Positions 5,649 to 31,122 of a stretch of 64,000 nucleotides of DNA are shown piece by piece. Source of the stretch: Psilocybe cubensis (taxonomy: Eukaryota); assembly GCA_017499595.2 (NCBI GenBank), contig CM039008.1, forward strand, positions 2,790,001-2,854,000, written 5' to 3'. The translations under genes and the position numbers were made by a program. The notes beneath the pieces were generated by a model. The model saw only the letters and a list, made by a program, of their open reading frames with translations. It made no database searches and was not told the origin of the DNA. Each line of letters starts with the position of its first letter. The stretch's first letter is position 1.

Positions 5649-5874
5649 AAACGTTGAAATTGAGGCTAAAAAATACTACAATTGGGCCTATATAGCACAT
5701 GACTGCCGGTTATAAATCCACATGACCGGTAAGGCCAGTTATCTATGACGTATCCATGGGGACTTCTGGGTGGAATGGCTATAAGATTGCATCATCGATA
5801 TTGCAGACTTACGGTCAGCCTCAAAAACTTTTTATCTAAACTACCTTTTGTTTTTAATTTTCTATTTCTTTAAC

Positions 5875-8800: not shown

Positions 8801-11040
8801 ATTGAGTGGTTCCAAATATTGTACGATTGCAGGTATGACATTCTCAATATATATATTATCATTTGCTAATGTTTAACATAGGTACATTTAGAAAATGACC
8901 ATACTGTTGTTTTTGATCCCAAAGATGATATTGACAATATTGTTGAGCATGCTACCAGTAAAAAAACTATTCTTACCGCCTTTTTTGCTGCTAATGCAAT
9001 TACTGGACCTCTTAGTGAAGAAGCTTGAAGACATACTTATCAAGAATTTCCGCAGTTTTTCACATTCAACAAAAACTCCTGGTCATGGAGTCTTCAAAAG
9101 CGTGATTTTGCGCTTGGAAGAATGTATTTCATCAAGCCAACAAGCGGAGAGGTCTTTTATCTTTGAACACTTCTTACTGCAGCCAAAGGACCTACTAGCT
9201 TTGAAGATATTTGCCATGTTCCTGGAATGAATAATGGTCAGCCATATCCCACTTTTCATGCTGCTTGCTTGGCTCGCGGTTTGCTCCAGGATGATGGTGA
9301 ATGGCGTATATGTCTGCAAGAAGCTTCTGCTATGCATACAGGCTCACGTCTCCATTCACTTTTTGCAACAATACTTTTATTCTGCGAAATGTTGCAACCA
9401 AACTTGCTTTGGGCAGAGTTTAGGACCCATATTTGCAATGATCTTGAGCATTGCCTTCTTACTATTGGAATCTGTGATCATACTAAGGAGGCTATATACG
9501 ACTATGGTCTTTATCTTTTGAATGGACTTCTTCTGAAATCTGGTCAATCACTTGAAACTTGGCCTTCAATGCCCCACTCAATTATGGACTGGTCATCTCT
9601 TACTATCAATCCTCTTATTGCGGAATAGCTTAATTATAATCCGGAGGTTCTACAAGCATATCTTGAATCCCGTTTACCCTTGCTTAATGAAGAGCAGCAC
9701 CTAATCTACGATACTATTCTTGCCTCAGTTAATGCTGCAAATGGGAATCTTTTCTTTCTCAATGGTCCTGGTAGCACTGGCAAAACATTTGTGTACAACA
9801 CTCTATGTGCAAAATTATGCAGTAATGGCAAGATTGTTCTATGTGTTTCTTCTTCTGGAATATCCGCTCTTCTTATTGCTGGTGGACAAACTGCTCACTC
9901 AATGTTCCGCATACCCATTGATATTGCCGAAAATATGGTCTGTACTATTTCTAAAAGAACCAACCGTGCTAAGCTTTTGAAATCAGCACACACCATTATT
10001 TGGGATGAAATTGGAGCTCAACATTGTTATGCTATTGAGGCCGTTGACCACACACTTTGGAATCTTTGAATGTGTGATATGCCATTTGGAGGAATCACAA
10101 CTGTTTTTGGTGGCGACTTTCTACAAACACTTCCTGTTGTGCCAAAAGGATCCCAAGAGGACATTGTTGATGCTACATTACAGCGATCATATCTTTGACA
10201 ACATATTAAAATTCTCAAGCTTACACAAAACATGCGTCTGACGGGTGCCGATGCAGATACACATCTATTTGCACAGTGGCTTCTTGATATTGGACATGGT
10301 CGCAATATGCATTCAGACTCTAAAGTTCAAATTCCAACTTATATGCATGTTGCTGATATTGACGGCCTTATCACTGCTATATATCCAGGCATTAATTCAA
10401 TTCCTTTGCCAGGTCCTGAATATTTTCTCTGCCGAATGATTCTAGCACCCCGCAATGTTGAGGTTTGCTCGATTAACAATGATATTCTGAATATGATGGA
10501 TGGAGAAGTACGTTAGTACCTTAGCGCTAATCAAATAATTATAGATCCAAACCATAATCCAGAAGATGAACTTGAGGCAGCGGTTCCGCCAGAAGTCTTA
10601 AGGGCTATTAATGACCCAGGCTCACCTCTAGGAGAGCTTAACCTAAAAATTGGCTGCCCTGTTATTCTTCTTCGAAATCTAAATCCTCAGCAAGGACTAT
10701 GTAACGGCACACATCTTATTATAACCCGCATGGCTGCAAGAGTTTTAGAGGCAAGAATTCTTGGTGGCAAACATGATGGTGACTTGGTTATAATTCCTCG
10801 AATTTCTGTGCCATCTTCAAGCAGCTCTTATCATTTTATGTGATTTCAATTTCCTCTCCGCCTTGCATTTGCACTTAGCATCAACAAGTCCCAAGGACAG
10901 TCCGTTAGGGATTTATTTGCATTCTTTAGTCTTTTCACATGGTCAGCTTTATGTTTCTCTTTCTTGGGTTACGTCTTCCAGAAATATTAAGATTTTACTT
11001 GGAGAAAATGATGGTAATTTAACCACAAATGTTGTATATG
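5875..11040 (+). pseudogene. Helitron RepHel (HUH Rep + PIF1 helicase) with stops and frameshifts
   Basis: N-terminal CSSCGALYW...CYSNGKV. Rep motifs DLFITMTTNP, IEFQK.GLPHIH (frameshifted) and KYAFKYLHKG. Helicase motifs [56 protein letters not shown]. Many in-frame stops. Start approximate. Confidence 0.92.
7920..8172. mobile_element. Solo LTR (253 bp) nested in Helitron Rep
   Basis: TGTCAGG...CCTAACA termini (TG..CA, short inverted repeat). 5-bp TSD CTAGA (7915-7919 and 8173-8177). Excision restores the Rep frame KIKALLDYITKHGIFGH. Confidence 0.88.
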
Positions 11041-11149
11041 TATTCTTGACCATTTATTTGGCATATTTAGATTTTTTAATTGAGATGATATTGCTTTTGG
11101 TGACAAAGAGTCTGAGCCAAAACTTTACTTTATTGAGGCGTTGGCATAT

Positions 11150-11998
11150 TCTAATTTTGGTTTATTGTCTATTCAACTTCCTAACCTTTTTGGCTAGATT
11201 GTTCAGATTCCTGCAAAAACAGGCTCACTTCCTTATAATTTAAAGGACTATGACTTTTGTGGCGATTTAAAATGGGTAATGTTTGGTTCTTCTTTATATA
11301 AATAGTGCCTTTTCATCTTATGATTTTCAATTATAGATTATTCCTTTGGGAGACACTAATGTTTCCTTCAACTTTTGTCCATATGTGCATATTGTTGGCC
11401 AGGCTTCAAATTGCAATCAATCATCATGGCAAATTTGCATGGAGCCTTATGTAGGAGCTATTATCAAGACAGAGCCCAACACTAAAGCTCCTCCTTGCCC
11501 CCGTGCTAATTTCTATTGTGAGCATCCAGAGCCCCCCCAAGGAAATACAATATGGAAGAAAAAACCGGTTCCTTACAATAATTGGTTTGTTGCTGTCCAT
11601 GGATTTCTTACCGATGTCATAATCAAGGATGATGACACAAATGAGATTGAATTCTTCAAGGTTATTGTTGATTCAATTGAATTTCTTGGAGGTGAACCTT
11701 CCATTGCAAACACGTCAATTGTGGCAAATAAACTTGATGGTATGCATATTTTACTACTATTTTTCTATTTAATTTTTGCTAATTTAAAATTGCTTTTATA
11801 GCTGCTTTACCGTCACCACGTTCAAAAGGATTTGGAAAAATGAAGGGCAAGGCACCAGCTACACCTTTGAAGCATGAATGATAAGAAGATGGAAATGACA
11901 ATCAAGCTACTCCAACACCCGTGAGACCTAAAACTCGAGCAAAGCAACAGGCTCCTGCAGTAGCTCAGGGCTCTCTAACTGCCGATCCAGTCTCTTAA
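11150..11998 (+). pseudogene. Second, intron-containing Helitron-borne ORF (possible OB-fold/ssDNA-binding accessory protein), decayed
   Basis: ORF 11346-11801 (CPYVHIVGQA...PVPYNNWFVAVHGFLTDV...VDSIEFLG) is flanked by GT-AG introns and followed by a basic/Pro tail with an internal stop. It lies between the helicase and the 3' hairpin. Start approximate; the fold assignment is inference. Confidence 0.5.
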
Positions 11999-13342
11999 TT
12001 TTCCTTATGATATTTTGAACATTTATTTCCGCCTTTCTATGGAATATTCTGCATCATATATATATACAAATAAATATGCACTGTTATTGTCATTCCCGTC
12101 TTTCCGTGCGGAGCACGGGTACACTGCTAGTCTAATTTTCAAAGTGAAATCTGAAATATTTTTATACAAATCTGTTAAGATAGTTCTATTTTGACCACTT
12201 ATGAATTATTCAATCATGCTGCTCTTCAAGCTTCAAGCCTCAAATTTCAAGTGTCAACTGACATCCCACTGATCAGGCCTTCAAGCGGCGGGGGCATCCA
12301 CTCGGGCTACAATCAAAGTAGTTCGCCCAGAATCTCGCCCCACTCAGCGAAGACCTACCGAAGGTTATGTAATGTATTTCACAGACATCACGTGTAGTCC
12401 TATAACCAACTACGGCTCGCTCGCCTTGCGCAGTCCTTGCGCTCGTCCACGGTACACCCTCTACTGTACATGTTTTGTCTCAACCAACCTGCGTCAGTAT
12501 CTCTATGCGTACCTGTGATTCACTAAAAGCCTACGCATTTCTATCTCTTGGTTCCATCTCCTCCTTCCCTCACTCCCCGCAGTCACGCATAGTATGGAAC
12601 TCGACAGTCCTCTCCCATCGCTTCCTTCTATTTCATGTTACTGGATTCTAAGCTGAAACGTGCCGCTTCTGTTTTCTCTGTGCCATGGCGTGGGCGTCAG
12701 AGAGCTCACCACTCACCAGGTTTCAATATAAATACCCCGACCGTCTCACGCAGCTTGCCAGTGCTCAGTCAGAATATTGGGTGAACGGTCTGTTTTCTAG
12801 TTTTTTTTACTCTTCGGGTCCCATATCGGAGGTGGGAGAAACTCATATCTATTCTCTCATGAATAAAAGGGTTCATGACAACATCAAAGGTGAGTCCCTG
12901 CATGGCAGCAACACGGGAACATTCTCAAGATGGGTATTGCTAGGGTGGAGCTAAGGTGATATCATGGCAAGATGACGATGCATTGAACGACCAGACCTTG
13001 TCTCCTCATAGATTTCCTTGTTCCTCCCGTCAGGATCAAACAAAACCCAGGGTAGTAGGCTACGGAGAATCACACAAACCGTATAGATTATTCTGATTCG
13101 GATTCTCATTTATCTCAGTGCAGTCGACGTGTGTCAATGCATAGTAGGTGGCGTGTAGAGTTGGAATATTTTATGAATCATTTTCCTCTACTGGTCGTTC
13201 ACATCGGTAACGATGCCCTCCGATGCTTCTACCAATCAGCCAGCATGACAAGTTTCCTTATGTAACTGACATGTTCAAATATAACAAACACATATATAAA
13301 CCGCACTTTGCCATTATCGTTCTTTCCCACTCACGAACAACG

Positions 13343-16228
13343 ATGAAGAATCCTCAACTCGTATCGTCCGTTGTGTTTGCAGTTATTGGATGGCTGGTCT
13401 ACAAGCTCATCAATATTGGTCGACGAGACAAGACCCTTCCACCTGGGCCACCGACAGCGCCTTTGGTGGGAAATGCTCATTTGCTTCCGTCGAAGTTTGC
13501 GTTTTTAAAGTATGTCTTTATTGCTGATATCCGTTTTGCGCACTAATGACCTTTTTCGCAAGATTCTCTGAGTGGGGAAGGCAATATGGTGGCATCTTTT
13601 CGGTACATGCACTATATCTACACAATTCTTGATAAGGCTCACCTTACTACTGCAGATTAAACTGGCAAATGCAACGATGATCGTGGTCTCCGACATGAAA
13701 GTGGTGAAAGAGCTTCTTGACGACCGCAGCAGTGAAACGTCTTCGCGTCCATTTTCTTTTGCTGTTCATTCCATCTCCAAAGGATATTTTGCATTAACAT
13801 CCTCAGGTAAGTATCAATCAAAAAAGCCATTGGGCTTTGCTTAATCGTATCAATATTACATATAACCCTTTGATTTTAGATAATCCGTTGTGGAAGGCGA
13901 GTCGCAAATCCATTCAACCTTTTCTAAGCGCAGGAGCCATTCAATCGCATGTCTCCATCTCTGACAAGGAAACTACCCAACTTTTATATGACATCCTGAA
14001 CACTCCCGAAGTAAGTCCTCTGTTCAAACGTGATGATACACGATTGACCCATGTAATAACTTGCAGAGTTTATGTGCCCACGTTTTTCGATGCACCTTTT
14101 CCTCTGCCGCCTCTCTGGCTTTTGGACGACGCGTTCTCCGTCATGATAGCTCAGAAGCTATACTCTTCGAACAGTATCTCCGCAATTTTGTCAAGACGGT
14201 TTCTCCTGAGTCTGCCCCCGTTGACCTGATACCCATCCTCAGATACATCCCAGAATCAATAGCTCCATGGGGAAAGGTCTGGCGTGAGACTCGCCAACAA
14301 CAACAGTCGATATACTATTTTTTCTTCGAGCACACTTTGCGTGAGGTCAACGCAGGAAATAAGAAGGGTACTATTATCGAAGCAATAGTAAAAAACCAAG
14401 AGGAGTTAGGCTTAACTCAGGATGCAATCGCGTATGTAGGAATTTTACATCATATGGCTTTCATGCTGATACGATCTCTCCAGATATATAGGAGGAATGT
14501 TACTCGACGCTGGGTCAGAGACGTCGGCCACAACAATACAATCGCTGATTTTGTCTCTCCTAAAATTTCCCGCGTGCTTGAAAAAGGCACAAGAGGAGAT
14601 TGATGAGCTCATCGGTGACAGCAGGTTGCCTATTTCAACTGACATCGATGAGTTACCTTATGTTCAAGCTGTTATAAAAGAGGTAATATATTCCTCTTCA
14701 CATCATACACCGTAAATTGACACATCTTATCAGGGTCACCGCCTGAGACCTGCTGTGCCATGTGGGATTCCGCACGCTGCTCTCAACGATTGTCATGTAA
14801 GCCACTGTTTCTCAACTCGCGATTTTATTCAATAATATTTGAGTCTAGTACCGAGGTTACACGATACCAAAAGGATCACCAATACTCATTAACATTTGTG
14901 AGTCACAGGATATATGATGTAGATGAAGAACATTATTCAATTTTCTCGATAGGGGGGATACTTCACGATCCTGGTGAATCATGTATTGTTTTCCTGGTCA
15001 TTGGCATTTTACGAATAGGTTCTCACACTGCGGGCGCCGACCGCTGTAAGTTAAACATACAGCAGAAAACTTACATGTCTTATGTAAGTTTCGCTGTAAG
15101 TTCGACATACAGCACATGTGTATGAAAAACAAACACTCGGCAAAGACATATTGTGTTTGGTGGCTGTATGCCGACCAAACACAATTGCTGTAAGTAGACT
15201 GTAAATAGAATAAACATCTGAATTACACAAATTCTGTTTGTCCGGTGTTAGTAAAACATACACATTTTCTTTAAGTAATACAAACAGCACTTACTGTAAG
15301 TAAAAATTACACACAAAGAACATAATTTGTGTATGTTATACTTACACAAGTTTTTCAATTCATTTAATGGTGTAAGTCTGACATACACAAATTGTGTTCT
15401 TCATGTGTAATTTTTACTTACAGAAAGTGCTGTTTGTATGACTTACAGAAAATGTGTACGTTTTACTAACACCGGACAAAGACAATTTGTGTAATTTAGG
15501 TGTTTATTCTACTTAAAGGTTACTTACAGTAATTGTGTTTGGTTGGCATATAGCCACCAAACACAATATGTCTTTGTCAAATGTTTGTTTTCCTGACACA
15601 TGTGCTGTAAGTTGAACATACACCTAAACTTACATAAGACATGTAAGTTTACTGCTGTATGTTTAACTTACAGCGGTCGGCGCCCGCAGTGTCAGAGCTT
15701 TTTGACCGTCCCGATGAATTTCGGCCTGAACGGTACCTTGAAACACCTGATGGAACAATTCCGGGTCTGAAAAAAGACTTCAATATACGGCTGAATCTAC
15801 CCTTTGGCAGTGGAAAGGTAGGCACCCAAGAATATCCTAATATATCTTCCACAATGCGCTACTTATTCACTACAGAGGCTATGTCCCGGTATGAATTTCT
15901 CGAACATTTTCTTAGTATGTCGCTTCTGTTATATATACAGTTTTTGGTACTAAATACGGATTGGTATTATAGAATCTTGCGGTTATGCGCCTGCTTTGGG
16001 CATTTGATTTTACGCCATACGATGACTTGACTACAAACCACGACACATGGGATATAGAAAAGGAGTACTCAGAGGTAATAATCATCATATTGTCATGTTA
16101 TACCAACGTTTAAAGTTTAACCTGTGTCCTAGGGAATTACATTAACACCTAAGAATTTGAGGTGCAAAATTACCCCGCGAAACGAGAAGAGGGCCAGAAT
16201 TATCCAGAACAGTTATAAAGAGGCTTGA
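13343..16228 (+). CDS. Cytochrome P450 (CYP64-like fungal group), copy 1; reading frame intact if the MITE-bearing intron is spliced
   Basis: TM anchor plus LPPGPP, I-helix DAGSETS, ExxR (KEGHR), PERY, heme motif FGSGKRLCPG. Exons join in frame to TGA 16226-16228. Confidence 0.9.
15026..15691. mobile_element. CACTG-ended foldback MITE inside a P450 intron
   Basis: CACTGCGGGCGCCGACCGCTGTAAGTTAAACATAC...GTATGTTTAACTTACAGCGGTCGGCGCCCGCAGTG. Imperfect ~320-bp arms. 3-bp TSD TCA. Confidence 0.93.
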
Positions 16229-16461
16229 TCCCACATAATCAATGTTTCAAGGCGCTAGATCGCTAGATTAATGCGATTGGTTTAGTGACTTGGTTTTACA
16301 GCGGCGGATATCTTCCCGTTGTTGAACCTCCGATCTACCAGCAACCCTCACCAAGTCAATTGCGATGTGACGATAGAACATATTCGACAAATTGTGATCA
16401 AATTTATTCAAGGGGATTACTAAAATTAAAACGCTACAACAAACTAACAATGTATGAATCT

Positions 16462-19400
16462 TTAAGCTCCCTTTGCAAACCCTTTGGCACCCCGATTCTC
16501 AACGCCTGGTAATTTGAATTTCTTTGTGGGGCCGACGTCGAGTTTCTCAAAGCTGTTAATGTCGACAAGGTTGTTGATCGTGGTTTGAATCGGAAGTAAG
16601 GTCTCCAACATGGCACTGTAGCCGTGAACGGCGACCTGGTCTGGAGTCTCCTTTGTTACCGAGACGTATGCGTTGATGGCCGCAGCCATTTCGTCCTGAA
16701 CTTGCTTGAGCTCGGAAATTCCTTGTTTAAATTCGTAGTAACCAAAGCACGGAGCCGCTCTTTCGGTATTGCTGATAGGCTGTGATACAAGGAACTTTGC
16801 GAGAGGAGCCAATACACCCATCATAATACCATACATATTCTTGAGAACCAGGTTCTGACGGTTGCTGTATTTCTCGACATGCCAGAGCGTTTCGATAGTA
16901 CGAAGGAGGAAGCAGTATGCAGCGTCAAACGTCAACGAGACCTGACAAAATGAAAATGATGTCAGCGATGTGGTACGTGGATATTGAGGCTGAAAAGTAC
17001 CTGGTAGAGTCTGCGATCAATTTTGAAGTAGTCTGGAGTAACAGGATTCTCGACGACAGGGTAAACCTCCCATTGAGCAGGCCCGAATCGCAAATCCATA
17101 AAGACGTCGTAGTGGTCTTTCTCAAGCTTGTCTGGATCGTCATAGGGACCCGGGGAACCCTCTCCTTGCACAACAATTATGCTGAGAGCTTCCAATGCAG
17201 TATCAAGATCCGTCACAACGACCGAGCCGCCTGCATCGCGCTCTTTGGCTTGATATCCAAGGCCCGGGGCAAACTGGAATGCGGCGGTCTCAGGGTAGAA
17301 TAGCTTATGGTTCTGACTACTCAAATACTTCAACCCTATTTAATGTTAAAGAATTGACGTCAAGCAGGATTACACGATGCATAGTTTATGACAACACACC
17401 TATTTTAATGGCATCATAGAATTGACCGAGTGTCTCGTACTCGTCCGATTCCGGTGGGGTATCAGTTTTCTCTCGTTTTTCCACCTATCGGTTATAATAA
17501 TAAGGTACTAAGAACACATTATTACTAATTATAAACTCACATCGATGAAAGTCTGGATGTTAGCCTTAGATGCCTTACGGAGCTGGAGCCATAATTTTGG
17601 AACGCGGCCAGGCATGAACGTGGGATAGGAGGGTATATATCGTGGGTCGTAAAGCTTTGGATTGCCTCCAACGGCTAGAAGAACATTTCCAGCCAGGCTT
17701 AAATGAAGCATTTCCTCAGCAACAACGCCTAGATAAACATGATTGATCAGTATTGTTTATGCACGATCGATGTATTATTTTACCTCGAATAGCACCGATA
17801 ACAGGGTCGTAGTAGCGAGGATCATTCGCGTACTCATCAGGAATCTTAACGCTGTACATTCCAAATAGATAAAGGGGAATAGTGGCCAGCTCAATGGCCA
17901 TAGCTGTCTGCAGATGGGTACGGAGGCTTTCGATGGTCGTGATGGGTTGGTTTTTACTGTCAGGCTGTGGAAGTTTCAATGGGCCTCCAACGATACCACT
18001 CTTTGCAGGAGTGTGTTGCGCAGGTAACGTTTCTTTTCCCGGCCGATGAATTATGCCGCGCTGAGTTTCAACGAATATGGGTTCAGGGCCGAATGATGGA
18101 CGCTGGACAATGAAACCAAGCTTGTGCCAGTTTTTAGCCATATCAGTATTGGCAAAAAGAGGTTGGTCTGAATAGACGTCTAGAAGATGGGTTACTTGAG
18201 TTAACGATAATATGTGGTGAAAAATAAAGGATATTACCCGTGTAGTTTTGATGAAGACCACGCTCCCAGGGTTTCCTGTCGTTTAATTTCTTTGCGATAT
18301 TGGCTGGGGTCACCGACTGGGAAACTATGTTGTAATCTTCTTCAGTAACGACAGTATCCGGTCGAGCAGATGGCCACCTAATAAAATATGAGTTTATCAA
18401 AGGGCGGTAAAGGGAGAGGAAGAAACGCACCAATAAGATCGACACATGTAGAAGTCACTCTGCCACGGTAAGGAAAGAAAACGAGTCAGATCCCCTGCAT
18501 TAACTTCTGGCTTAATAGTAAACGGTGTGTTAAAGTCATAAATCTTGTCGTCCTCCGCATTCCAGGACATTTCTATACCAGGATACAAAGGAGCGCCAAT
18601 AGTAGCCTCCAAAGCAGCCTTCGTGAGCGCTGAAGGTTGCTCCTCGACGGGAATATCATCGAAATTCTGATACGTTTTAACAGCGGTCGTATCGAAGCTC
18701 CCTTCACTCCATTGTATCAAGCGATCATATTGCAACTCGGTAACGGATGCGAACGTGGAGGGATCACCAGCAGTTGTTCGACCTATATGTGATCATTTTG
18801 TTATTACAACGTCGACATGAGCTGATATATAACATTACCTCCATCACCCGAAAGCCATGGCATAAAGTATGGGTATGCCTGCCCTGCGCGGGCTGAGTCG
18901 TACTTCTTGTTGGTCTCAGGAAGTCGCATCCGCATAATTACACCTTTGCGAATAGCTTCATTTACTTTGCTCTTGTCAGAGAGGGAATGTTGCCATCCTT
19001 CATCGAAGAAATTCCCTGCAGAATTCGGGCCTGACAAATATGGAATAAGTCCAATGGGAGCGAAAGATTTCTTTGATATAATGCGCACCGTGCCCGCCAT
19101 TTGCTTGTCCGTTTACCCAGGAGAGAAGAGGTGGTCGTTGGAGAAGGGGCCATATGTGTTTGTACCAACTTACATCCCCAACGTTATAAGAGTCACCTTG
19201 AGCAGCGCGTTTCTTGCGCTCGTACACTTCTTCCATCAAATCATAAAGAGATGTTGGTGCATATATGCCGTTTGCAAACTTTGGGGTTGTGCCGATGACG
19301 CGAGCCTTCCCTTGAGCATCGACCCTTTTGAAAATACTGAGAATAATTCAAACTGCGAAACGATATAACTTACGACTTTCCCGACGCCGTGGATGTTATA

Positions 19401-20219
19401 GTTGCTGTAATCCAGCCATCGCATGTGTCGTCGATCCAGTCAGGTGAGTCGAAATCAGTCATGATATATGGGTAAGGATCGTCTTCCTTAGCGATAGACT
19501 TGGATAGACCGCGGCCAGCAAGGACGACAAGACGGCCCTGATCATCTGTTCTGGCCTCTCCAAGGTAGACATCTGTGGGCTCGGTTTTGGACCCGTAGAA
19601 CTTTCCCGCTAATGGGACAGATTTGGCGTTACAGCCACTAACACTTTGGATGCCACTGTCGACAATCAGTTTATCACGCTGGTCTGGGGGAAGCTAGCAA
19701 CATCGAAAACTAAGCAGACGAACATAAAGAATGCTCTTCAAACCTACGTCTGCTTGAACACTCGGGTTGCGCAGGGTTGTATAGCCTGGCTTAAAGTGAC
19801 CATCCTGGGTCTTTCCTGGATGTTGATATTAGAAAGTGAATAAAGAAGATGAAATAACTTGGCATAATACCCATGAATGTGTACCAAGACGCCTTTTTGT
19901 TCATCACTTGGATCTTCCATGCTATATCCCAACCGCTCTTTTTATTTATTTCCAGCACTTTACCATCATTTGCGACCGCGTAAATTCTGAACCTTGCAGC
20001 CTAGTAAACGTATGAGTGCCTGAAACATGATATAATTTGAAGAATTACCTGTCGTTTTACCGCACCGTTGATGTCTTTGAATCCATTGTTAGGTTCTGGA
20101 AAATACCCAGGAACCTCGGGCCCATAGAACCAACCGTCATCGAGGGTTGAGTTCCCGACACGAGCAAATCCGATAGGAGGATAGATTCGTAGACTTGCCC
20201 AGCCAGATGGAAGAGCCAT
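16462..20219 (-). CDS. LodA/GoxA-family CTQ-dependent amino-acid oxidase fused to a C-terminal VioB/RebD-type ferritin-like domain (~1050 aa, ~12 introns)
   Basis: LodA motifs IYPPIGFARVGNS, KRQAARFRIY, WKIQVMNKKASWY, LRNP, LGEARTDDQGRLVVLAGRG, WIDDTCDG, MPWLSGD, PLYPGIEMSW, GDLTRFLSLPWQSDFYMCRSYWWPSARPD, NWHKLGFIV. Ferritin-like motifs LQTAMAIELATIPLYL, VAEEMLHLSLAGNVLLAVGG, TLGQFY, IIVVQGEGS, EKDHY. Exons join in frame, and the domain junction lies within one exon (ORF 17716-18261). Confidence 0.9.
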
Positions 20220-21074
20220 AGGTTGACGTTTAAATTTTGCTTAGAGTGGTTAAATTACAGGGCGATTTTGAAAGATAAGACCGTAACGTTAACCCTGACG
20301 CACGGCTGTCTTGGCAGAATGGTGAGGTGTAGAACGACAAGTAAAATGAAACACCAGCATATTTGGCCAAGTTTTGCACGAGAAATATACTCTCCGAATT
20401 CTCACGTTAATTTTATCAACCAATGGGACGACGCCGCTGTATAGTCATCGGACGGTGTCTGATTATCGTCAAATAGCTTCCTGTTACCATTAGGCTGCAG
20501 GATGATGATCTCCTAAAATCTTGAAATTAAACTTTGCTTTTAATCGCTATATAATGGGAATTTTTACATGGGACCCGAGTGCTGTTTTCAGTCCTATCTT
20601 CCGCATTCAGTCGCAATGACGTACGTTCTATAAATAGCACCACCCCCGGTGTGTGTTCCGCTGCCTCTGGGTGTGCACCCGCACTAGCGAGGGTGTGTGT
20701 AAAGTCAGTATTCCGTACGCCAGCGGTATATCCGTTACGATACGGGGTAAATTACCACCAATTCTTAATGCATGAAAGTTGATCGACGCTCAGAATACGT
20801 CATATGTCTACGAACACGAAGGTGCTATAATAACCGCTTAAGCGGAGAATTCTCCAAGTTGATTGGGAGGCGCTTTATTGAGGCCCCGGATACAGCGCCT
20901 TAGTATCCGCATCCGATGTAGCACAACAAATTTGTAGAATTTCGGTACCATTGTGTCAAGTCCAACTTTGAATTCCTAAAGATATAAAAGCAGACGACAT
21001 TCAACTTATATTTCATCAACTTGCACCTCATCATCAGCTACTTGAATAACCCACTTAAACCTCTACTTCTAACA
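20220..21074. promoter_or_regulatory. Divergent (possibly shared) promoter region between the oxidase fusion and OYE
   Basis: Head-to-head ATGs separated by 855 bp. TATAAAA at 20983-20989 upstream of the OYE. Confidence 0.5.
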
Positions 21075-22410
21075 ATGTCGAACTCGAAGCTCTTTCAACC
21101 AATTACCGTGGGAAACGCGAAACTTGAGCATAGAGTTGTACTTGCACCGCTCTCTCGCTTCCGTTGGACCCAGCGAGAACATTTACCTGTCTTCCCTATC
21201 GTCAATACATACTATGAGCAGCGTTCCCGCCGACCTGGTACCCTCTTGATCACGGAGGCAACACCTGTTGCACGTCACGCTGGAGGATATTATAACGTCC
21301 CTGGGATATGGAACCAGGATCAGATCAACGGTTGGAAATCGGTTCGTCTCTCACCATTCCATGCTTTTTAAACATTCTTAAAAGACTCATGTGTGACTGA
21401 GCAGATAACCGACACAGTCCACAAAAACGGATCGTTTATCTTTATGCAGATATGGGCTCATGGACGCGCGGCGGACCCCAAGGTGTTGGCGGAAGATGGT
21501 TTTGACTTCGTAGCGCCCTCTCCCATTCCCATCACCGGACGCGCTACTCCAAGAGAGCTGACCATACAAGAGATAGAGAAATACCCGGGACTCTTTGCGA
21601 AAGCTGCGAAGAATGCCGTTGAGGCTGGCTTTGATGGCGTAGAGATTCACAACGCCAACGGGTACCTTCTCGACCAATTTGTCCAGGACGTCAGTAATCA
21701 TCGTACGGACAAGTATGGAGGAAATATAGAAAATAGAAACAGACTTTCTCTTATGGTTGTCGACGCTGTCGTCGATGCTATTGGTCCTGAAAAGGTTGGA
21801 ATTCGCATAAGCCCTTGGATGGTTTACCAAAGTGTGTAACAATTATGATTTATCTGCATAATTCATTGCCATAATTCTGATTAAATGCTACTCATAGACA
21901 TGCATATGATAGATCCGGTGCCCCAATTCACGCATCTGGTTGAATCTATCGTCAATAAACATCCGGATATGGCTTACCTCCATGTTGTGGAACCAGACAA
22001 AGGGGCACCTGAGACGGAATCCAATGACTTTCTACGCGATATTTGGGCTCCACGACCATTTATAAGCTGTGGAGACTACACCCGCGAGACGGCTATCAAA
22101 CGTGCAGACGAGACAGGAAATTTGATTGCCTTTGGAAGGTACTTTATCTCAAATGTAAGTTGCCCTCATTACCCAGACAATATACAACAATGACTCACTG
22201 TTATTGACTCGTGTGTAGCCCGATCTTCCCACTAGGATTGAACATAACATACCTTTTAACGAATATGATCGTAAGACCTTTTATGGACCGAAAGGACACC
22301 TCCTCGGAGCGGAAGCGGGATACATAGATTACCCATTCGCAGACGAGAAGCATGAGAAAAAGAGGGGAAATAATACGGGAGAAGATTGGGATGTCATTTA
22401 TAGAGCGTAA
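21075..22410 (+). CDS. Old Yellow Enzyme (NADH:flavin oxidoreductase / ene-reductase)
   Basis: MSNSKLFQPITVG, RVVLAPLSRFR, LLITEAT, FMQIWAHGR, AGFDGVEIHNANGYLLDQF, RTDKYGG, IAFGRYFISNPDLP, GYIDYPF. Three introns; stop TAA 22408-22410. Confidence 0.93.
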
Positions 22411-25797: not shown

Positions 25798-27641
25798 ATG
25801 GCAAATACTGTAGCGTATTTTATATTTATGGGAGTATGTTGGGCGATCTTCAAACTGTTACGCATTGGACGCCGTGAAGATACGCTCCCTCCGGGTCCAC
25901 CGACTGTCCCAATCCTTGGAAACGCCCACCTTCTTCCAACGAAGTATCCATTTGTTAAGTAAGCATTATTTTTTTGAATATTTACGGTGGCTACTCAACG
26001 TTTCTTTAGACTGGCGGAGTGGGGTAAAGACTACGATGGAATTTTCTCGGTGAGAAAGATTTTGATTCAACGCGACAGGGAATCGGTTATAATTGTGATA
26101 CTTGCGGATAGCTCAAAGTCGCAAATGGGACCGCTGAGTTCGCCTCCCGCCCAGCGTTTTCAGGTATGGATGCAGTAACTGGTGGCCGATATTTTTTAAC
26201 CGCGTCTCCTGGTACGTATATTGAGTTGCATGGATCTCAAAAGATACTTAAGCCCAGTGGATAGATAGTCACCTTTGGAAAACTAGTAGACAGGCCATAA
26301 AATCTCTGTTATCTCCTCAAGCAGTCCAGAAATACTATCCCCTTGTAGACGCAGAAACAACCCAACTAATGTATGACATTTTACACAAACCAGAGGTAAG
26401 GACATTCCCGCAGCTTTTTTGGTTGTATTATCGTCATCTTATACAATGAACAAGGCGTTCTACGACCACATCACCCGCCTGACTCTCTCATTCATGACCT
26501 CTATCGTCTTTGGTCAGCGCACTCCAAGACATGATTCTCCTGTGGCAGTCGCTTTCAGGAAGTACATCGAACAGTTTTTCAGAGTGTTCTCCCCTGAAGC
26601 ACCTCCCGTGGATTTTATTCCTGCTCTTATGTACGTTCCAGAGAGGTGGGCGCCTTACAAAAAACTCTGGAGAGAATCCAGAATTATGCAGCGGAATCTG
26701 TATTTTGGATTGCTAATTGAGGCTGAGAAGCGTAAAAATGAAGGTTTGAATGAGTGTTTTGTAACAAGCCTGTTGGATCAACAGATTGAGCTTGGATTGG
26801 ATCGTGAAACTATTGTGTATGTCTATTTCTCAGTATCAACCCCTGTTCACATACTGAATCCTCATGTCCCTTCTGTTTGTATTATGAAGTTACATTGGCG
26901 GCGCACTATTGGATGGGGGAGCGGAGACGACTTCATCATTTCTTCAAAATTTCGTTCTCTGCCTCGTCAAGTTTCCAGCAGTATTACGGAAGGCGCAACT
27001 TGAGGTCGATACTGTCGTTGGAGAAAGGATTCCAGATTACAATGATATCAAATCCTTGCCTTATGTTCAAGCTATCATAAAAGAGGTTTGGAGTACGAGT
27101 CTTCACGTTTATCCACGTTCACTTAATCCTGCATTTGTAGACACATCGCTTACTTCCCATCGCACCTACAGCCATGCCACATGCATCGCCCAACGATTGT
27201 GAGGTACGTGATTGATACTTCATTCGAACGAGGAATTGGGTTTATTTGAATAGTATCGAGGATTTGTAATCCCGAAGTATACCCCTGTTCTCTTCAATGT
27301 GTGTGAGTAATGAACGCTACTAGTAGTGTCACTATTTTAACGTCATTTCGCGTTTAATTAGTTGGTATATGTCGCGACCCAAGTAAAGGTTCAATTTTAT
27401 AATTTTCGATTTGCACTGATGCACTTGCACGGTCTCAGATCTATATGAACGCCCTGATGAATTTTGGCCTGAGCGATATATCTTGTCACCCGATGGGACT
27501 AAACCCGGACTTCCTGAGGATATGAGTCACGTTCGCACATCAGTTCCCTTTGGAAGTGGCAAGGTAAGCTTGAAGTTATGGCTGATATGAGGGTCTCTGT
27601 ATTAAAGGTGACACAAGAGACTATGTCCTGTGCATGTCTGA
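25798..27641 (+). pseudogene. Cytochrome P450 copy 2, internally deleted and C-terminally truncated
   Basis: Same intron layout as its paralogs. About 18 codons (IVVVSD...LLDDRS) are missing in exon 3 (LKVANGT|AEFASRP). The heme exon reads RLCPVHV-stop and the last exons are absent. Confidence 0.85.
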
Positions 27642-28665: not shown

Positions 28666-30911
28666 ATGGCAAATATGATATCGCTTGCGGTAGCATTTGT
28701 AGCTGCCTGGGTTATCTACAAGCTGCTATGCTTCGGGCGTCGAGAAGATACGCTCCCTCCTGGTCCACCGACCATACCAATCCTCGGCAATGCTCATTTA
28801 CTTCCTAGGAAATTCCCATTTATTAAGTACGCATTACTTCTTGGCTTCTTGCAACAGCAGTTTTCTGACATAAAGATGTTTAGGTTGGCAGAAATGGCTA
28901 AAGACTATGACGGGATATTTTCGGTGTGTAGATCTCATTGTAAATGCTGAATTCTCTGATTATTATGTTCTAAAAGCTTAAAGTCACAAACGGGACAATC
29001 GTCGTCGTGTCGAATATGAAAACTTGCAAGGAACTCTTGGATGACCGTAGTGCCGAGTTTTCCTCGCGTCCCGCGTTTGCGGGTATGGACATTGTGACCG
29101 GTGGCAGATACTTCGCCACGGCTCCCGCACGTGAGTCTCTCTCAGCTGCGCTAGAGACACGCTTTCTCATTGGCGAACAGACAGCTTTTTCTGGAAGCTA
29201 TGTAAAAAAGTTATTCATCCTCTAGTGTCTCCGCAAGGAGTCCAGATGTACCACCCTCTCGCTGACGAAGAAACAACACAATTATTATACGATATCTTGC
29301 ATAATCCAGAGGTATTCTATACACTTGCGCCAGTATAAATCATGTCACTGACCTCTTAGTTAGTGTTTCTACGATCACATTACCCGCTCAACTCTCTCGT
29401 TCATAACATCCGTGGTTTTTGGACAAAGAACGCCAAAGTATAATTCTCCTGTTGCAGTATCCTTTATGAAATATATGGAGGTATTCAAGAAGGTATTTTC
29501 CCCCGAGTCAGCTCCGGTTGACTTCATTCCTGCCCTCTTGTACGTGCCCGAGCGTTGGGCACCATGGAAAAAAATGTGGAAGGAGACACGAGAATTGCAG
29601 CAGTCTCTCTACTTTAACATGTTTAAAGACGTAATCCAGGGCCAAAGGAATGGGATGTATGGCGACTGTTTTGTTGCAAAAGTTATAGAACAACAGGAAG
29701 AACTTGGTTTGGATCAAGAAACTATGGCGTATGTCCACCCCCATAACCAAGTTATAACCAATACTCAATTTTACTCTGAATTTGAAGATACATCGGTGGC
29801 ATTCTGTTGGATGGTGGAGCAGAAACAACTGCGTCATTGATACAGAATCTTGTCCTCTGTGTCACTAAATTTCCCGCTGCTTTACAGAAAGCTCAAATGG
29901 AGATTGATAGCGTGGTTGGAGAAAGACTTCCAGATTTCCGTGACATCAAAGATCTGCCATATGTTCAAGCTCTCATCAGAGAGGTAAATTATTTCATTTA
30001 CATTTATATACCCAATTGCATTAAGCATTCATTCCCCTGATCCTAGACCCATCGTCTCCTTCCTACTGCCCCAACTGCAGTGCCGCATGCGTCAGTTAAT
30101 GACTGTGAGGTAAGAACTTTACTTTTGTATTTTTAATGAAGCACTCAGTAATGATATGAATAGTATCGAGGGTATCTAATACCCAAAAACACCCCCGTCC
30201 TCTTCAACATCTGTGAGTATAATTCATAATTGAGGTCAAATCCTCAGCACTGACATTAATGTCAACTCCCATCAAGATGGTATTTGCCGTGACCCCGGTA
30301 ACTGAAGCTTCCTGTACAGAATATGCACTCTCTACTAATTTGATCATAATAATATAGAACTTTATGACCGACCAGACGAATTCTGGCCAGACAGATACCT
30401 ATTGTCTCCTGATGGAACGAGACCCGGACTACCTGAGAGTATGAGTGGCGTACGCGCAACCCTACCTTTTGGTAGCGGAAAGGTCAGTGATATCGCAGTT
30501 ACAATAATCTTTCTTGTATTAATGTTGACATTCGAAATTCAAGAGGATTTGCCCCGGGATGCATCTTGCTAATGCAAATACTGTTAGTCTTATCCTTTGA
30601 ATATGCTCTTCAATGCTCTGAATAGTAGTGTATACTCTAGAACCTGGCCATCATGCGACTTCTCTGGGCATTTGACTTTGCAGCTGCTGATGGTTCTCTC
30701 TCGATGACTCCACAATTGAATATAGAAAAGGAACATTGCGATGTGAGTCTTCACCTATATTACAATTTAATCAATCTACAATTCAGATTCAAACCACCTT
30801 CAGGGAGTAACATTGACCCCAAAACCATTTCAATGCAAAATTACACCACGCAGCGAGATGAAAAAAGAGATCATCGAGACAGCGTACAGGCAACTCGTAC
30901 CTCTTGCCTAA
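28666..30911 (+). CDS. Cytochrome P450 copy 3, apparently intact
   Basis: [52 protein letters not shown]. Stop TAA 30909-30911. Confidence 0.88.
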
Positions 30912-31122
30912 CCTATGCATAGATTTCACGATTTTTATCACTACAAGAATGTGCTTTAGACGCAACTATAATCTTTCCAGAATTCAGAATACGGTATTAG
31001 ATTATACAATGTTCTCTAATCACTTTGGAAGCCTTGACACTATCCCGGTGAACTCCGTTTCGGACATTTGATGCCGAATATCGCTTCAATCGGAGTCCAA
31101 ATCTTTGTTTAGGAAGCGGAGT

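What the first reader, a model, noticed from the sequence alone, without database searches (positions are those of the whole stretch)
16462..20219. Fungal single-chain fusion of a LodA/GoxA quinoprotein oxidase with a VioB/RebD-type ferritin-like domain
Seen: an intact gene of about 12 introns. The N-terminal ~640 aa carry LodA-family motifs, including PWQSDFYMC and WWPSARPD (18355-18470). The C-terminal ~400 aa carry ferritin-like motifs with a potential di-metal ligand set (IELAT, EEMLH, QGEG, EKDH). The junction (NWHKLGFIV...FVETQR, a Pro-rich linker, then LQTAMAIEL) lies in one uninterrupted exon, so the fusion is not a gene-model artefact. Established: LodA and GoxA are mainly bacterial H2O2-producing oxidases whose CTQ forms from the Cys of DFxxC and a Trp of WWP. 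In violacein and indolocarbazole pathways a separate flavin oxidase (VioA/RebO/StaO) makes an imino acid that VioB/RebD/StaD couples. Inference: one polypeptide may both oxidise an amino acid and couple or handle the reactive product, using a quinone instead of a flavin oxidase.
Basis: partly seen in the sequence, partly recalled or inferred. Interest (0 to 1): 0.93.

Follow-up and report, generated by a model that had tools for sequence, protein, structure and literature searches.

The report
Fungal quinoprotein oxidase fused to ferritin-like domain
A mushroom (Psilocybe-type) gene really does encode, and express as one spliced message, a bacterial-style quinone amine oxidase joined to a metal-binding ferritin-like module related to part of the violacein/staurosporine coupling enzymes. 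The fusion is already in protein databases and widespread in fungi and amoebae, but nobody has worked out what it does.

Summary
Window 20219-16462 (minus strand) holds an intact gene of 13 exons and 12 introns for a 1030-aa protein. It is 98% identical to a database protein labelled Psilocybe cubensis.

- **Domains:** residues about 8-582 are LodA_N + LodA_C with the CTQ triad Asp482/Cys486/Trp491 and a GoxA/LodA fold. Residues about 603-1030 are a PF12902 ferritin-like module. Its E / E-M-x-H / QGEG / ExxH ligand set is the family signature, and it matches PDB 3HL1 at Z 25.6.
- **Expression:** intron-less contigs skip all 12 introns, and one contig runs through the junction exon.
- **Distribution:** the fusion is already predicted and domain-annotated in databases. 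It occurs in Agaricomycetes, Mucoromycota, Glomeromycota and Amoebozoa.
- **Prior report:** lodA, lodB and ferritin-like genes were reported as neighbours in fungi in 2015.
- **Relation to VioB/StaD:** the C-half aligns with the C-half of a StaD/RebD/VioB-type protein (25% identity, E 2e-13). It is closer to stand-alone bacterial PF12902 proteins of unknown function.
- **lodB:** no lodB-like gene lies in the window.

Function is inferred only. I favour coupled two-step oxidation (0.45). The rivals are peroxide disposal, cofactor maturation and internal electron transfer. I rate it a new variant of a known kind, interest about 0.55.

The parts
16462..20219 (-). Whole coding region (ATG 20219 to stop 16464-16462). 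There are 13 exons: 20219-20049, 20000-19871, 19815-19748, 19693-19374, 19324-19089, 19030-18839, 18782-18431, 18377-18238, 18179-17784, 17728-17541, 17484-17400, 17335-17001, 16941-16462. The product is 1030 aa.
   Evidence: exon chaining against P0002, 20/1030 differences. (all 12 introns skipped in intron-less contigs of X1; 11 of 12 in X2).
18043..20198 (-). LodA/GoxA-like quinoprotein oxidase module (residues about 8-582; Pfam LodA_N 13-233, LodA_C 370-497). Introns are included in the span.
   Evidence: Pfam. (GoxA 1e-23, LodA 7e-22 by sequence). (Foldseek GoxA 5e-28, LodA 7.5e-26 on the model of P0002).
18356..18468 (-). Cofactor motif PWQSDFYMC...YWWPSARPD, interrupted by intron 7 (18430-18378). 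Asp482 is at 18456-18454, Cys486 at 18444-18442 and Trp491 at 18376-18374. These are the predicted CTQ-forming Cys/Trp and the conserved Asp at Cys-4.
   Evidence: LodA D512/C516 and S-Y-W-W581-P align with these residues. (invariant in 14/14 fused proteins). (coordinates).
17784..18179 (-). Junction exon (exon 9, 396 nt). It holds the end of the LodA fold, the Pro-rich linker and the first helix of the ferritin-like module in one open frame.
   Evidence: (X1 record 1 and X2 record 3 cover 17783-18179 without a break).
17953..18042 (-). Flexible Pro-rich linker (residues about 583-612).
   Evidence: sequence and coordinates. (pLDDT below 50 for residues 582-598).
17091..17913 (-). PF12902 ferritin-like domain (residues 626-841). 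Putative dimetal ligands: E633 (17892-17890), E674 (17714-17712), H677 (17705-17703), E818 (17162-17160), E831 (17123-17121), H834 (17114-17112). Introns are included in the span.
   Evidence: E 1e-43. (ligand columns conserved across 36 family members). (profile hits 3HL1 at 7e-37 and bacterioferritins at 2e-6 and 9e-5).
16465..17090 (-). C-terminal helical extension of the ferritin-like module (residues 842-1030). It has no Pfam family but is conserved, and it is also aligned in StaD-type proteins up to residue 937. The last 23 residues are modelled as disordered and end in GAKGFAKGA.
   Evidence: BLASTP alignment 603-937 with a StaD-like protein. (3HL1 aligned over model 65-392; a second helical bundle at 318-458)..
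16371..16461 (-). 3' untranslated region covered by the spliced contig.
   Evidence: table 8 (X1 record 1 reaches 16371).
20220..20335 (-). 5' untranslated region covered by a spliced contig.
   Evidence: table 8 (X2 record 5 reaches 20335).

Best explanation
The gene encodes a cytosolic, two-module oxidase.

Module 1 (residues about 8-582) is a LodA/GoxA-type quinoprotein. After conversion of Cys486 and Trp491 into cysteine tryptophylquinone, it oxidatively deaminates a primary amine or amino acid to a carbonyl compound, ammonium and reduced oxygen.

Module 2 (residues about 603-1030) is a PF12902 ferritin-like four-helix-bundle module with a carboxylate/histidine dimetal site. It is tethered by a flexible linker and is homologous to the C-terminal half of the StaD/RebD/VioB coupling enzymes. 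It carries out a second oxidative step on what module 1 releases: the carbonyl or imine product, using the co-produced peroxide or O2. This is the same division of labour as the separate oxidase plus StaD/VioB pairs, now in one chain.

Shown: the gene structure, its expression as one spliced message, the domain identities and folds, the conserved cofactor and ligand residues, and the distribution.

Inferred: CTQ formation, metal binding, the substrate, and that the two modules act in sequence.
For: Architecture and expression.

CTQ hallmarks: Asp482, Cys486 and Trp491 align with LodA D512, C516 and W581. They are invariant in 14 of 14 fused proteins.

Folds:
- The AF2 model of P0002 has pLDDT 90.1.
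- Foldseek gives GoxA 5e-28 and LodA 7.5e-26.
- The C-half model (pLDDT 83.7) matches 3HL1 at Z 25.6, rmsd 2.4 A over 259 residues. Dps, bacterioferritin and Mn-catalase bundles follow at Z 10-12.5.

Ligand set across 36 PF12902 sequences: E1 32/32, E2 32/32, H2 33/33, E3 36/36, H4 36/36; E4 is E in 24, D in 2, R in 9 and A in 1.

Homology to a StaD/RebD/VioB-type protein: P0002 603-937 aligns with P0168 667-1045 at 25% identity, E 2e-13. P0168 lies between a flavin Amino_oxidase gene and a P450 gene.

PF12902 genes sit beside other oxidases in bacteria:
- directly downstream of a GMC oxidoreductase in 2 loci (L088 and L118/L139);
- in an operon PF12902-lodA-lodB-aminotransferase (L138).

Selection has kept the fusion. 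All-three-domain proteins occur in Psilocybe, Sphaerobolus, Volvariella, Mycena, Jimgerdemannia, Ambispora and Pyxidicula, and in unnamed transcript-length contigs.

LodA-like proteins are independently fused at the same end to an unrelated iron domain, PF14518. It was found in 8 of 8 long bacterial-type proteins tested and in 3 locus proteins. hhalign between the two kinds of C-terminal module gives probability 0.16%.
Against: - No activity, cofactor or metal has been measured for any member of the fused group. I found no paper on it.
- CTQ enzymes keep the substrate nitrogen on the cofactor and release a carbonyl compound, not a free imine (established mechanism, recalled). The analogy with flavin oxidases feeding StaD/VioB is therefore imperfect.
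- The nearest relatives of the C-half are stand-alone bacterial proteins of unknown function.
- Among 20 actinomycete PF12902 loci, only 2 had an oxidase of the peroxide-forming kind as direct neighbour (GMC in L118, LodA in L133). The rest were varied: PQQ dehydrogenase, MbnB-type RiPP genes, CDGSH protein, transporters, BipA.
- 0 of 79 bacterial LodA loci had a PF12902 gene within the fetched flanks.
- StaD/RebD are described as haem enzymes (PMC10851217 abstract/introduction passage). Their chemistry may not rest on the dimetal site at all.
- No lodB-like maturation gene is in the window, so even CTQ formation is unproven here.
Confidence: 0.45

Rival explanations
1. Built-in peroxide disposal. 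The ferritin-like dimetal module acts like a manganese catalase or rubrerythrin. It destroys the H2O2 made by the quinoprotein half, so that a cytosolic oxidase does not poison its own cell. There is no second step on the organic product.
For: - The ferritin-like fold is shared with Mn catalase (1jku Z 10.7, 2cwl Z 9.2) and nigerythrin (Z 9.7).
- There is no room for a signal peptide, because LodA_N starts at residue 13. Peroxide would therefore arise in the cytosol (inference).
- The same detoxifying idea was proposed for that architecture in a 2026 preprint (10.64898/2026.03.27.714854, passage read).
Against: - The structural matches to catalase and rubrerythrin lie within the range expected for any four-helix bundle (note).
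- The sequence hit to pseudocatalase is not significant (E 0.59).
- The same module in StaD/RebD/VioB builds a C-C bond rather than only removing peroxide (PMC10851217 passage).
- PF12902 genes also occur in RiPP-type and other contexts without an oxidase.
Confidence: 0.2
2. Cofactor maturation in cis. The dimetal module hydroxylates or oxidises Trp491 (with or instead of a LodB flavoprotein) to build CTQ in the neighbouring domain. It has no role in turnover.
For: - No lodB-like gene was found anywhere in the 64-kb window. A profile of 52 bacterial LodB-like ORFs gave 0 hits at E<=10 with filters off. The best tblastn E was 0.03. The control profiles found all exons.
- By contrast, a LodB-like ORF directly follows lodA in 52 of 79 bacterial loci by a strict filter.
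- Tryptophylquinone maturation by an iron enzyme has a precedent in MauG (review PMC11951088, passages read).
- The flexible linker would let the module reach the other domain (inference).
Against: - Where contexts can be read, the ferritin-like gene coexists with lodB: the bacterial operon L138 and the five unfused fungal lodA genes (lodB list in supplementary file 2; text).
- Bacterial LodA fusions to the other iron domain also keep lodB (L004, L007).
- A one-off maturation factor is an odd thing to keep covalently attached in such distant lineages (inference).
- The rest of the Psilocybe genome could not be searched.
Confidence: 0.15
3. Internal electron acceptor. The quinoprotein half works as a dehydrogenase. 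It passes electrons from the reduced cofactor to the dimetal (perhaps also haem) centre of the C-half, which reduces O2 to water. This would resemble quinohaemoprotein amine dehydrogenase or the diiron alternative oxidase.
For: - The CTQ stretch resembles the quinohaemoprotein amine dehydrogenase gamma subunit (1jmx_G, E 0.06, residues 466-509; a QH-AmDH_gamma Pfam trace in relative P0042).
- The PF12902 signature E-M-x-H keeps the Met in 33 of 33 sequences. It aligns with the same motif of bacterioferritins, where that Met ligates haem (recalled).
- StaD/RebD are called haem proteins.
- Alternative oxidase appears among the fold matches (3vv9, Z 8.9).
Against: - All these similarities are weak or generic.
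- LodA and GoxA use O2 directly and need no acceptor (established).
- The two halves are joined by a disordered linker, and the full-length model has pTM of only 0.67. No fixed electron-transfer interface is evident.
Confidence: 0.1
4. Not a functional fusion: either an annotation or assembly artefact joining two genes, or a decaying pseudogene.
For: Some fungal database entries list the halves separately: P0005 and P0014 (483-484 aa, ferritin-like only) and P0018 and P0020 (LodA only).
Against: - The junction lies inside one exon with an open frame.
- Spliced contigs bridge it.
- The frame is intact over 1030 codons.
- The same architecture recurs in distant eukaryotes, including de novo transcript assemblies.
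- The 'separate' ferritin-like entries P0005 and P0014 begin at an internal Met of the LodA tail (MAKNW...). They therefore look like truncated models of fused genes (inference).
Confidence: 0.02

Closest known systems
LodA (L-lysine epsilon-oxidase, Marinomonas mediterranea; PDB 3WEU/2YMW) and GoxA (glycine oxidase; PDB 6BYW/6EER)
   Same: Same Pfam domains (LodA_N, LodA_C) and the same fold (Foldseek 5e-28 and 7.5e-26). The Asp-x3-Cys and Y-W-W-P motifs that give CTQ in LodA are present.
   Different: - Only 18-23% identity in the structural alignment.
- Eukaryotic, with 12 introns.
- Cys-to-Trp spacing is 5 residues, against 65 in LodA.
- Carries a 430-aa C-terminal ferritin-like module.
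- No lodB/goxB-type gene beside it in the window.
- Substrate unknown.
StaD / RebD / VioB (chromopyrrolic-acid / iminophenyl-pyruvate dimer synthases); example here is P0168 from a Streptomyces locus, flanked by a flavin amino-acid oxidase and a P450
   Same: - The C-terminal roughly 380 residues align (25% identity, E 2e-13).
- They include PF12902 and the E / E-E-M-x-H / QGEG / (D/E)xxH motifs.
- Both are partnered with an amino-acid oxidase, as a separate gene there and fused here.
   Different: - StaD-type proteins have a different roughly 660-aa N-terminal part with no detectable relation to LodA (hhalign probability 0.2%).
- Their oxidase partner is a flavoprotein.
- They are described as haem enzymes.
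- No bis-indole product is known to me from Psilocybe (recalled).
CC_0557 of Caulobacter vibrioides (PDB 3HL1) and stand-alone bacterial PF12902 proteins
   Same: The only solved structure with a clear match: Z 25.6, rmsd 2.4 A over 259 residues, and profile E 7e-37. Stand-alone bacterial members are 35-37% identical to the fungal C-half.
   Different: They are stand-alone proteins of about 320-460 aa with no known function and varied gene neighbourhoods. 3HL1 lacks the Glu of the last ExxH (alignment).
Bacterial LodA-like proteins fused to PF14518 (haem-oxygenase-like iron domain) or to a catalase-like domain
   Same: The same idea: a LodA-like oxidase covalently joined to an iron/oxygen-handling domain. 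The PF14518 domain is also C-terminal. These Streptomyces fusions are the bacterial proteins most similar to the fungal LodA half (35-36%).
   Different: The fused domain is unrelated (hhalign probability 0.16%). These proteins are bacterial and are followed by lodB (L004, L007). The catalase-like domain is N-terminal.
Unfused fungal group V LodA-like genes with lodB-like and ferritin-like neighbours (Campillo-Brocal et al. 2015, PMC4417212)
   Same: The same three protein families are associated in Agaricomycetes. Named fungal LodA-only proteins fall in the same tree clade as the fused ones.
   Different: There, LodA-like proteins of 574-636 aa are listed as separate genes with an adjacent lodB-like gene (supplementary files). 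Here, LodA and the ferritin-like module are one polypeptide and no lodB-like gene is nearby.

Membership tests
LodA/GoxA family of CTQ quinoprotein oxidases | LodA_N and LodA_C domains above Pfam cut-offs | tested here: met
   183.8 bits (cut-off 26.3) and 90.5 bits (cut-off 25) on P0002; the same families on the window's own exon ORFs.
LodA/GoxA family of CTQ quinoprotein oxidases | Three-dimensional fold of LodA/GoxA | tested here: met
   Foldseek probability 1.00, with GoxA 6ubz at 5e-28 and LodA 3weu at 7.5e-26. The model is of P0002, which is 98% identical to the window protein.
LodA/GoxA family of CTQ quinoprotein oxidases | Cys and Trp that form CTQ, plus the Asp four residues before the Cys | tested here: met
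   D482/C486 align with LodA D512/C516. Y-W-W491-P aligns with LodA S-Y-W-W581-P; that third alignment piece is weak on its own; invariant in 14/14 fused proteins.
LodA/GoxA family of CTQ quinoprotein oxidases | Partner flavoprotein gene (lodB/goxB type) next to the oxidase gene | tested here: not met
   no match in the 64-kb window (profile of 52 LodB-like ORFs, E<=10, filters off). The rest of the genome is not held, so a distant copy is not excluded.
LodA/GoxA family of CTQ quinoprotein oxidases | CTQ cofactor actually present; amine-dependent H2O2 formation | not testable with these tools
   Needs protein chemistry.
PF12902 ferritin-like family | Match to the PF12902 profile above cut-off | tested here: met
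   150.3 bits (cut-off 22.3), residues 626-841, profile positions 1-219 of 221.
PF12902 ferritin-like family | Family signature E / E-M-x-H / QGEG / (E)xxH | tested here: met
   all six positions are present in the fungal sequences. Five are invariant across the 36 aligned members where covered.
PF12902 ferritin-like family | Fold of the only solved member (3HL1) | tested here: met
   Z 25.6, rmsd 2.4 A, 259 aligned residues. Foldseek 7e-09. The model is of P0005, the Gymnopilus junonius C-half.
StaD/RebD/VioB iminophenyl-pyruvate dimer synthases | Full-length architecture: a StaD-type N-terminal part of about 660 aa preceding PF12902 | tested here: not met
   a LodA profile against the StaD-like P0168 gives probability 0.2%; only the C-halves align. 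The fungal N-half is LodA-like instead.
StaD/RebD/VioB iminophenyl-pyruvate dimer synthases | Homologous C-terminal module | tested here: met
   residues 603-937 against 667-1045, 25% identity, E 2e-13.
StaD/RebD/VioB iminophenyl-pyruvate dimer synthases | Haem binding and coupling of two indole-pyruvate (imine) units | not testable with these tools
   Property taken from PMC10851217 (passage).
Ferritin / bacterioferritin / Dps iron-storage proteins | Four-helix bundle with a ferroxidase-type dimetal site | tested here: inconclusive
   the profile hits bacterioferritins at 2e-06 and 9e-05 over helices A-B. Z 11-12.5, within the range of generic helical bundles. Cage assembly was not tested.

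The most novel reading that the evidence does not exclude
The fused protein is a self-contained eukaryotic counterpart of the bacterial oxidase + StaD/VioB pair. A protein-derived quinone oxidises an aromatic or basic amino acid, and the tethered dimetal (possibly also haem-binding) module oxidatively couples or rearranges the product. This would give fungi and amoebae a one-enzyme route to dimeric pyrrole/bis-aryl type metabolites whose eukaryotic genes are unknown. As a bolder variant, its CTQ would be made without any LodB flavoprotein, by the in-cis metal module, which would be a new route to a tryptophylquinone.
Probability: 0.12. Interest if true: 0.85.

Novelty: new variant of a known kind. 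Interest (0 to 1): 0.55.

Why it matters
LodA-type quinoproteins have been studied only in bacteria, as lysine and glycine oxidases. Their fungal relatives have never been characterised.

This gene shows that eukaryotes keep and express a version welded to the least understood part of the violacein/indolocarbazole coupling enzymes. Working out what it does would address four things:
- It would give the first function for the PF12902 module outside StaD/VioB.
- It would test whether that module is a dimetal enzyme, a haem enzyme or both.
- It would show how a tryptophylquinone is matured in a eukaryote.
- It might uncover a new amino-acid-derived metabolite in Psilocybe and many other fungi.

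If the C-half only removes peroxide, the finding is a neat but modest case of self-protection.

Tried and rejected
- **Own genome:** not held, so paralogues and a distant lodB could not be sought.
- **Earlier findings of the scan:** nothing on record.
- **LodB profile against the protein database:** the best 120 of 2922 hits were all bacterial or unnamed. It gave no information on fungal LodB.
- **RNA runs:** no listed holder is on record as RNA. X1 and X2 are labelled 'RNA?' by guess, and I call them transcript-derived only because their contigs lack all introns.
- **Complex prediction of N-half against C-half:** no verdict.
- **Foldseek of the full model against viral structures:** no match at E<=0.001. 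It was irrelevant and a wasted job.
- **ESM Atlas on residues 600-1030:** only PF12902 clusters named 'ferritin-like domain-containing protein'.
- **StaD N-terminal part against LodA:** I tested whether the two are related. They are not.
- **PF14518 and PF12902 C-terminal modules:** I tested whether they are related. They are not.
- **GMC-PF12902 fusion in G299:** I considered this because of a 1015-aa open frame. I rejected it: the GMC gene is in another frame, so the two genes are adjacent and not fused.
- **Wrong frame:** my first StaD-like reference (L087:7714-10632) was in the wrong frame and was replaced by P0168.
- **Bacterial LodA+PF12902 single-chain fusions:** none among the best 80 of 538 loci in the species-representative genomes. 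The other 458 loci were not examined.
- **Literature:** searches for a description of the fusion found only the 2015 neighbourhood report.

Full report
**What is there.** On the minus strand, an ATG at 20219 opens a gene that ends with a stop at 16464-16462. I chained exons against the nearest database protein, P0002 (1030 aa, labelled Psilocybe cubensis, 'Iminophenyl-pyruvate dimer synthase domain-containing protein'). This gives 13 exons and 12 GT..AG introns of 48-64 nt, and a 1030-aa product with 20 differences from P0002. The window therefore comes from Psilocybe cubensis or a very close relative.

Pfam run on the raw exon ORFs finds LodA_N in 3 pieces, LodA_C in 1 and PF12902 in 3, out of 12 pieces. 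On P0002 the three domains cover residues 13-233, 370-497 and 626-841, with E-values of 6e-54, 1e-25 and 1e-43. The junction lies in one 396-nt exon, 18179-17784.

**Is the fusion real and expressed?** Four public runs hold the stretch. I laid their contigs on 16200-20500.
- Contigs of X3 and X4 are collinear with the genome.
- Contigs of X1 and X2 skip the predicted introns with CT..AC ends, which read GT..AG on the coding strand. X1 skips 12 of 12 and X2 skips 11 of 12; X2 shows no joint at the intron 19031-19088.
- The aligner places the third intron a few bases off (55 nt skipped with one letter between, a net 54 nt).
- X1 record 1 (2668 nt) joins exons from 19323 down to 16371. It passes through the junction exon and 91 nt beyond the stop.
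- X2 record 5 reaches 20335 upstream of the ATG.

The runs are only guessed to be RNA. The intron-less contigs are what show a spliced message.

**N-terminal half.**
- By sequence it matches solved GoxA (1e-23) and LodA (7e-22).
- An AlphaFold2 model of P0002, built with a 90-row alignment, has mean pLDDT 90.1 and pTM 0.67. The low-confidence segments are 582-598, 967-979 and 1008-1030.
- Foldseek gives GoxA 5e-28 and LodA 7.5e-26 at probability 1.00.
- In a fragment alignment, LodA D512 and C516 pair with D482 and C486. LodA 'SYWWP' (578-582, containing W581) pairs with 'YWWP', so W491 is the CTQ tryptophan candidate. That third alignment piece is weak on its own, but the motif is identical.
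- These residues are invariant in 14 of 14 fused proteins and nearly so in 20 LodA-only relatives.
- The roles of C516 and W581 in LodA are stated in PMC4417212 (section 7 read).
- CTQ in LodA and GoxA is made by the flavoproteins LodB and GoxB (PMC11951088, passages).

**C-terminal half.**
- P0002 615-826 matches PDB 3HL1 (1e-10).
- A 36-sequence alignment of fungal C-halves, bacterial stand-alone PF12902 proteins and a StaD-like protein gives these ligand counts: Glu1 32/32, Glu2 32/32, His2 33/33, Glu3 36/36, His4 36/36. Glu4 is E in 24, D in 2, R in 9 and A in 1. The Met inside E-M-x-H is present in all 33 sequences that cover it.
- A profile of this alignment hits 3HL1 (7e-37), two bacterioferritins over helices A-B (2e-06 and 9e-05), and Mn pseudocatalase not significantly (0.59).
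- A model of the Gymnopilus junonius C-half (P0005; pLDDT 83.7, pTM 0.84) matches 3HL1 at Z 25.6 (rmsd 2.4 A, 259 residues). Dps, bacterioferritin, Mn catalase, nigerythrin, alternative oxidase and aldehyde-deformylating oxygenase follow at Z 8.9-12.5. That range is not above what helical bundles give by chance.
- Residues 318-458 of that model form a second helical bundle.

I read the C-half as a ferritin-like dimetal-carboxylate module of unknown activity.

**Relation to VioB/RebD/StaD.** In a Streptomyces genome I found a PF12902 protein (P0168). It begins directly after a flavin Amino_oxidase gene and is followed by a P450 gene. This is the staO-staD-staP arrangement described in PMC10851217 (passage).
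- P0002 603-937 aligns with P0168 667-1045 at 25% identity, E 2e-13. Homology therefore extends beyond PF12902 into the C-terminal extension.
- The StaD-like protein keeps E / EEMIH / QGEG / DxxH.
- Its N-terminal part of about 660 aa has no detectable relation to LodA (hhalign probability 0.2%).

The fungal protein therefore shares a module with StaD-type enzymes but is not a member of that family.

**Distribution.**
- A word-based search with the junction exon found 14 proteins. By precomputed Pfam, 5 have all three domains, 2 have LodA_C + PF12902, 6 have PF12902 only and 1 has none.
- A full HMMER scan with P0002 found 4143 proteins at E<=0.001 and 607 at E<=1e-30.
- Ten of ten representatives of 1005-1311 aa that I tested carry all three domains.
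- The named ones are Volvariella volvacea, Jimgerdemannia flammicorona, Ambispora leptoticha and a Pyxidicula operculata transcript. A further unnamed EukProt transcript, Sphaerobolus stellatus and Mycena species also occur.
- Several unnamed ones sit on contigs barely longer than the ORF, as transcripts would.
- In a FastTree of 138 LodA domains (of 173 proteins; those covering fewer than 450 profile positions were dropped), all 18 LodA+PF12902 proteins fall in one clade of 31 leaves. The other leaves are 12 LodA-only proteins (fungal where named) and one LodA+PF14518 protein. Support is 0.72 for the whole clade and 1.0 for the 21-leaf subclade that holds Psilocybe.
- Among species-representative bacterial genomes, the best 80 of 538 loci comprised 79 LodA-only matches and one stand-alone PF12902 gene. 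None was a LodA+PF12902 fusion.
- The most similar bacterial LodA halves (35-36%, Streptomyces) are fused to PF14518 at the C-terminus. PF14518 was found in 8 of 8 long proteins tested and is unrelated to PF12902.

**Context and the LodB question.** A LodB-like ORF (Trp_halogenase/FAD_binding_3 hits) starts within -200 to +600 nt of the lodA stop in 52 of 79 bacterial loci, using a strict size filter. A profile of these 52 ORFs finds nothing in the six-frame translation of the window at E<=10 with filters off. The best tblastn E is 0.03. Control profiles for the two halves recover every exon. Pfam on 134 ORFs of at least 90 aa and 144 ORFs of 45-89 aa also shows no such flavoprotein.

The immediate neighbours are an Old-Yellow-Enzyme gene, divergently transcribed 768 bp upstream, and a convergent P450 gene.

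By contrast:
- The five unfused fungal lodA-like genes of the 2015 survey (574-636 aa for the four whose lengths I saw) each have an adjacent lodB-like gene and a ferritin-like gene close by (PMC4417212 text; supplementary files 1 and 2).
- One actinomycete has an operon of unknown gene, PF12902, lodA, lodB and class IV aminotransferase (L138).

The ferritin-like partner therefore normally coexists with LodB. This argues against it being a simple LodB substitute. The Psilocybe locus remains unexplained, because the rest of the genome is not held.

**Neighbourhoods of PF12902 in bacteria.** PF12902 is present above cut-off in 31 of 301 sampled Actinomycetota genomes. In 20 loci with 4-kb flanks, the direct neighbours were:
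- a GMC oxidoreductase (1 locus, plus L088 found earlier);
- LodA (1 locus);
- a PQQ dehydrogenase with a multicopper oxidase (1 locus);
- MbnB/TglH/ChrH with a second PF12902 gene and a radical-SAM gene (1 locus, plus P. citrea L086);
- a CDGSH iron-sulfur protein, xanthine-dehydrogenase/Rieske genes, an FAD_binding_2 protein, transporter/regulator sets, or housekeeping genes.

The link to peroxide-forming oxidases recurs (amino-acid oxidase, GMC, LodA) but is far from universal.

**Mechanism.** I commit to coupled two-step oxidation (0.45). The CTQ half oxidises an amine. The tethered dimetal module then acts on the released carbonyl or imine, with peroxide or O2 as oxidant. This parallels the oxidase + StaD/VioB pairs.

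The rivals are peroxide disposal (0.20), cofactor maturation in cis (0.15), an internal electron acceptor that reduces O2 to water (0.10) and artefact (0.02). All catalytic statements are inference. No member of the fused clade has been studied, and my searches found no paper describing the fusion. bioRxiv supplements and subscription journals were not searchable, so a description there cannot be excluded.

**Verdict.** Novelty is limited for three reasons:
- the protein is already predicted and domain-annotated;
- the fungal lodA / ferritin-like association was published in 2015;
- LodA fusions to other iron domains are known.

What is new is the demonstration that the single-chain form is expressed, ancient and widespread in eukaryotes. 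It also shares a whole C-terminal module with StaD-type enzymes and here stands without a nearby lodB. I rate it a new variant of a known kind, with interest 0.55.

Noticed in passing
window 20988-22190 (+): An Old-Yellow-Enzyme type gene (Oxidored_FMN in three exon ORFs, E 1e-19, 6e-45 and 2e-06). It is transcribed divergently from the fusion gene, with a 768-bp shared upstream region. It is a possible co-regulated partner.
   Followed up: no
window 13211-16030 (+), 26377-27199 (+), 29364-30919 (+), 32230-33715 (-), 33527-35219 (+), 39373-39973 (+): Six cytochrome P450 genes or gene fragments around the fusion gene. The first is convergent with it. This could be a tandem P450 family or part of a metabolic cluster. 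An SDR gene lies at about 4321-5151 (+).
   Followed up: no
window 5785-11800 (+): A Helitron-like element: Helitron_like_N (E 2e-28), PIF1 helicase (E 4e-40) and the Pif1 2B domain in consecutive frames.
   Followed up: no
window 55080-55379 and 59965-60264; ORF sets 55524-58774 and 60409-63659: An exact direct repeat with 4885-nt spacing, and duplicated ORF sets without Pfam matches. This is a tandem duplication of about 4.9 kb. A second repeat pair, 51974-52273 and 53838-54137, is 95% identical.
   Followed up: partly
window 16465-16533 (residues 1008-1030): The disordered C-terminal tail ends in a motif conserved among Agaricomycete relatives, G-[AN]-K-G-F-A-x-G (P0002, P0004, P0007, P0011, P0005, P0014). 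It places a tethered lysine beside a lysine-oxidase-like domain. Its meaning is unknown.
   Followed up: no
window 17714-17703 (E674-M675-L676-H677); alignment A7: The Met inside the E-M-x-H motif is present in 33 of 33 PF12902 sequences. It aligns with the same motif of bacterioferritins, where that Met ligates haem (recalled). StaD/RebD are called haem enzymes. The module might therefore bind haem as well as two metals.
   Followed up: partly
L138 7291-13786 (an actinomycete genome, handle G127): A bacterial operon: unknown 326-aa gene, PF12902, lodA-like, lodB-like, class IV aminotransferase. It is a tractable bacterial model for the lodA / ferritin-like partnership.
   Followed up: partly
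L086 5377-8698 (Pseudoalteromonas citrea) and L127 2266-10199 (an actinomycete): PF12902 genes beside MbnB/TglH/ChrH (DUF692) RiPP-modification genes. The actinomycete locus has two PF12902 genes and a radical-SAM gene. This suggests a peptide-modifying role for some family members.
   Followed up: no
L088 6019-8678 and L139 6428-9558 (two actinomycetes): PF12902 genes directly downstream of GMC oxidoreductase genes. This is another pairing with a peroxide-forming oxidase.
   Followed up: partly
proteins P0005 and P0014 (Gymnopilus junonius, Cyathus striatus): Database 'ferritin-like-domain-containing' proteins of 483-484 aa start at an internal Met of the LodA tail (MAKNW...). They include the last LodA strands, so they look like truncated models of fused genes.
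   Followed up: partly
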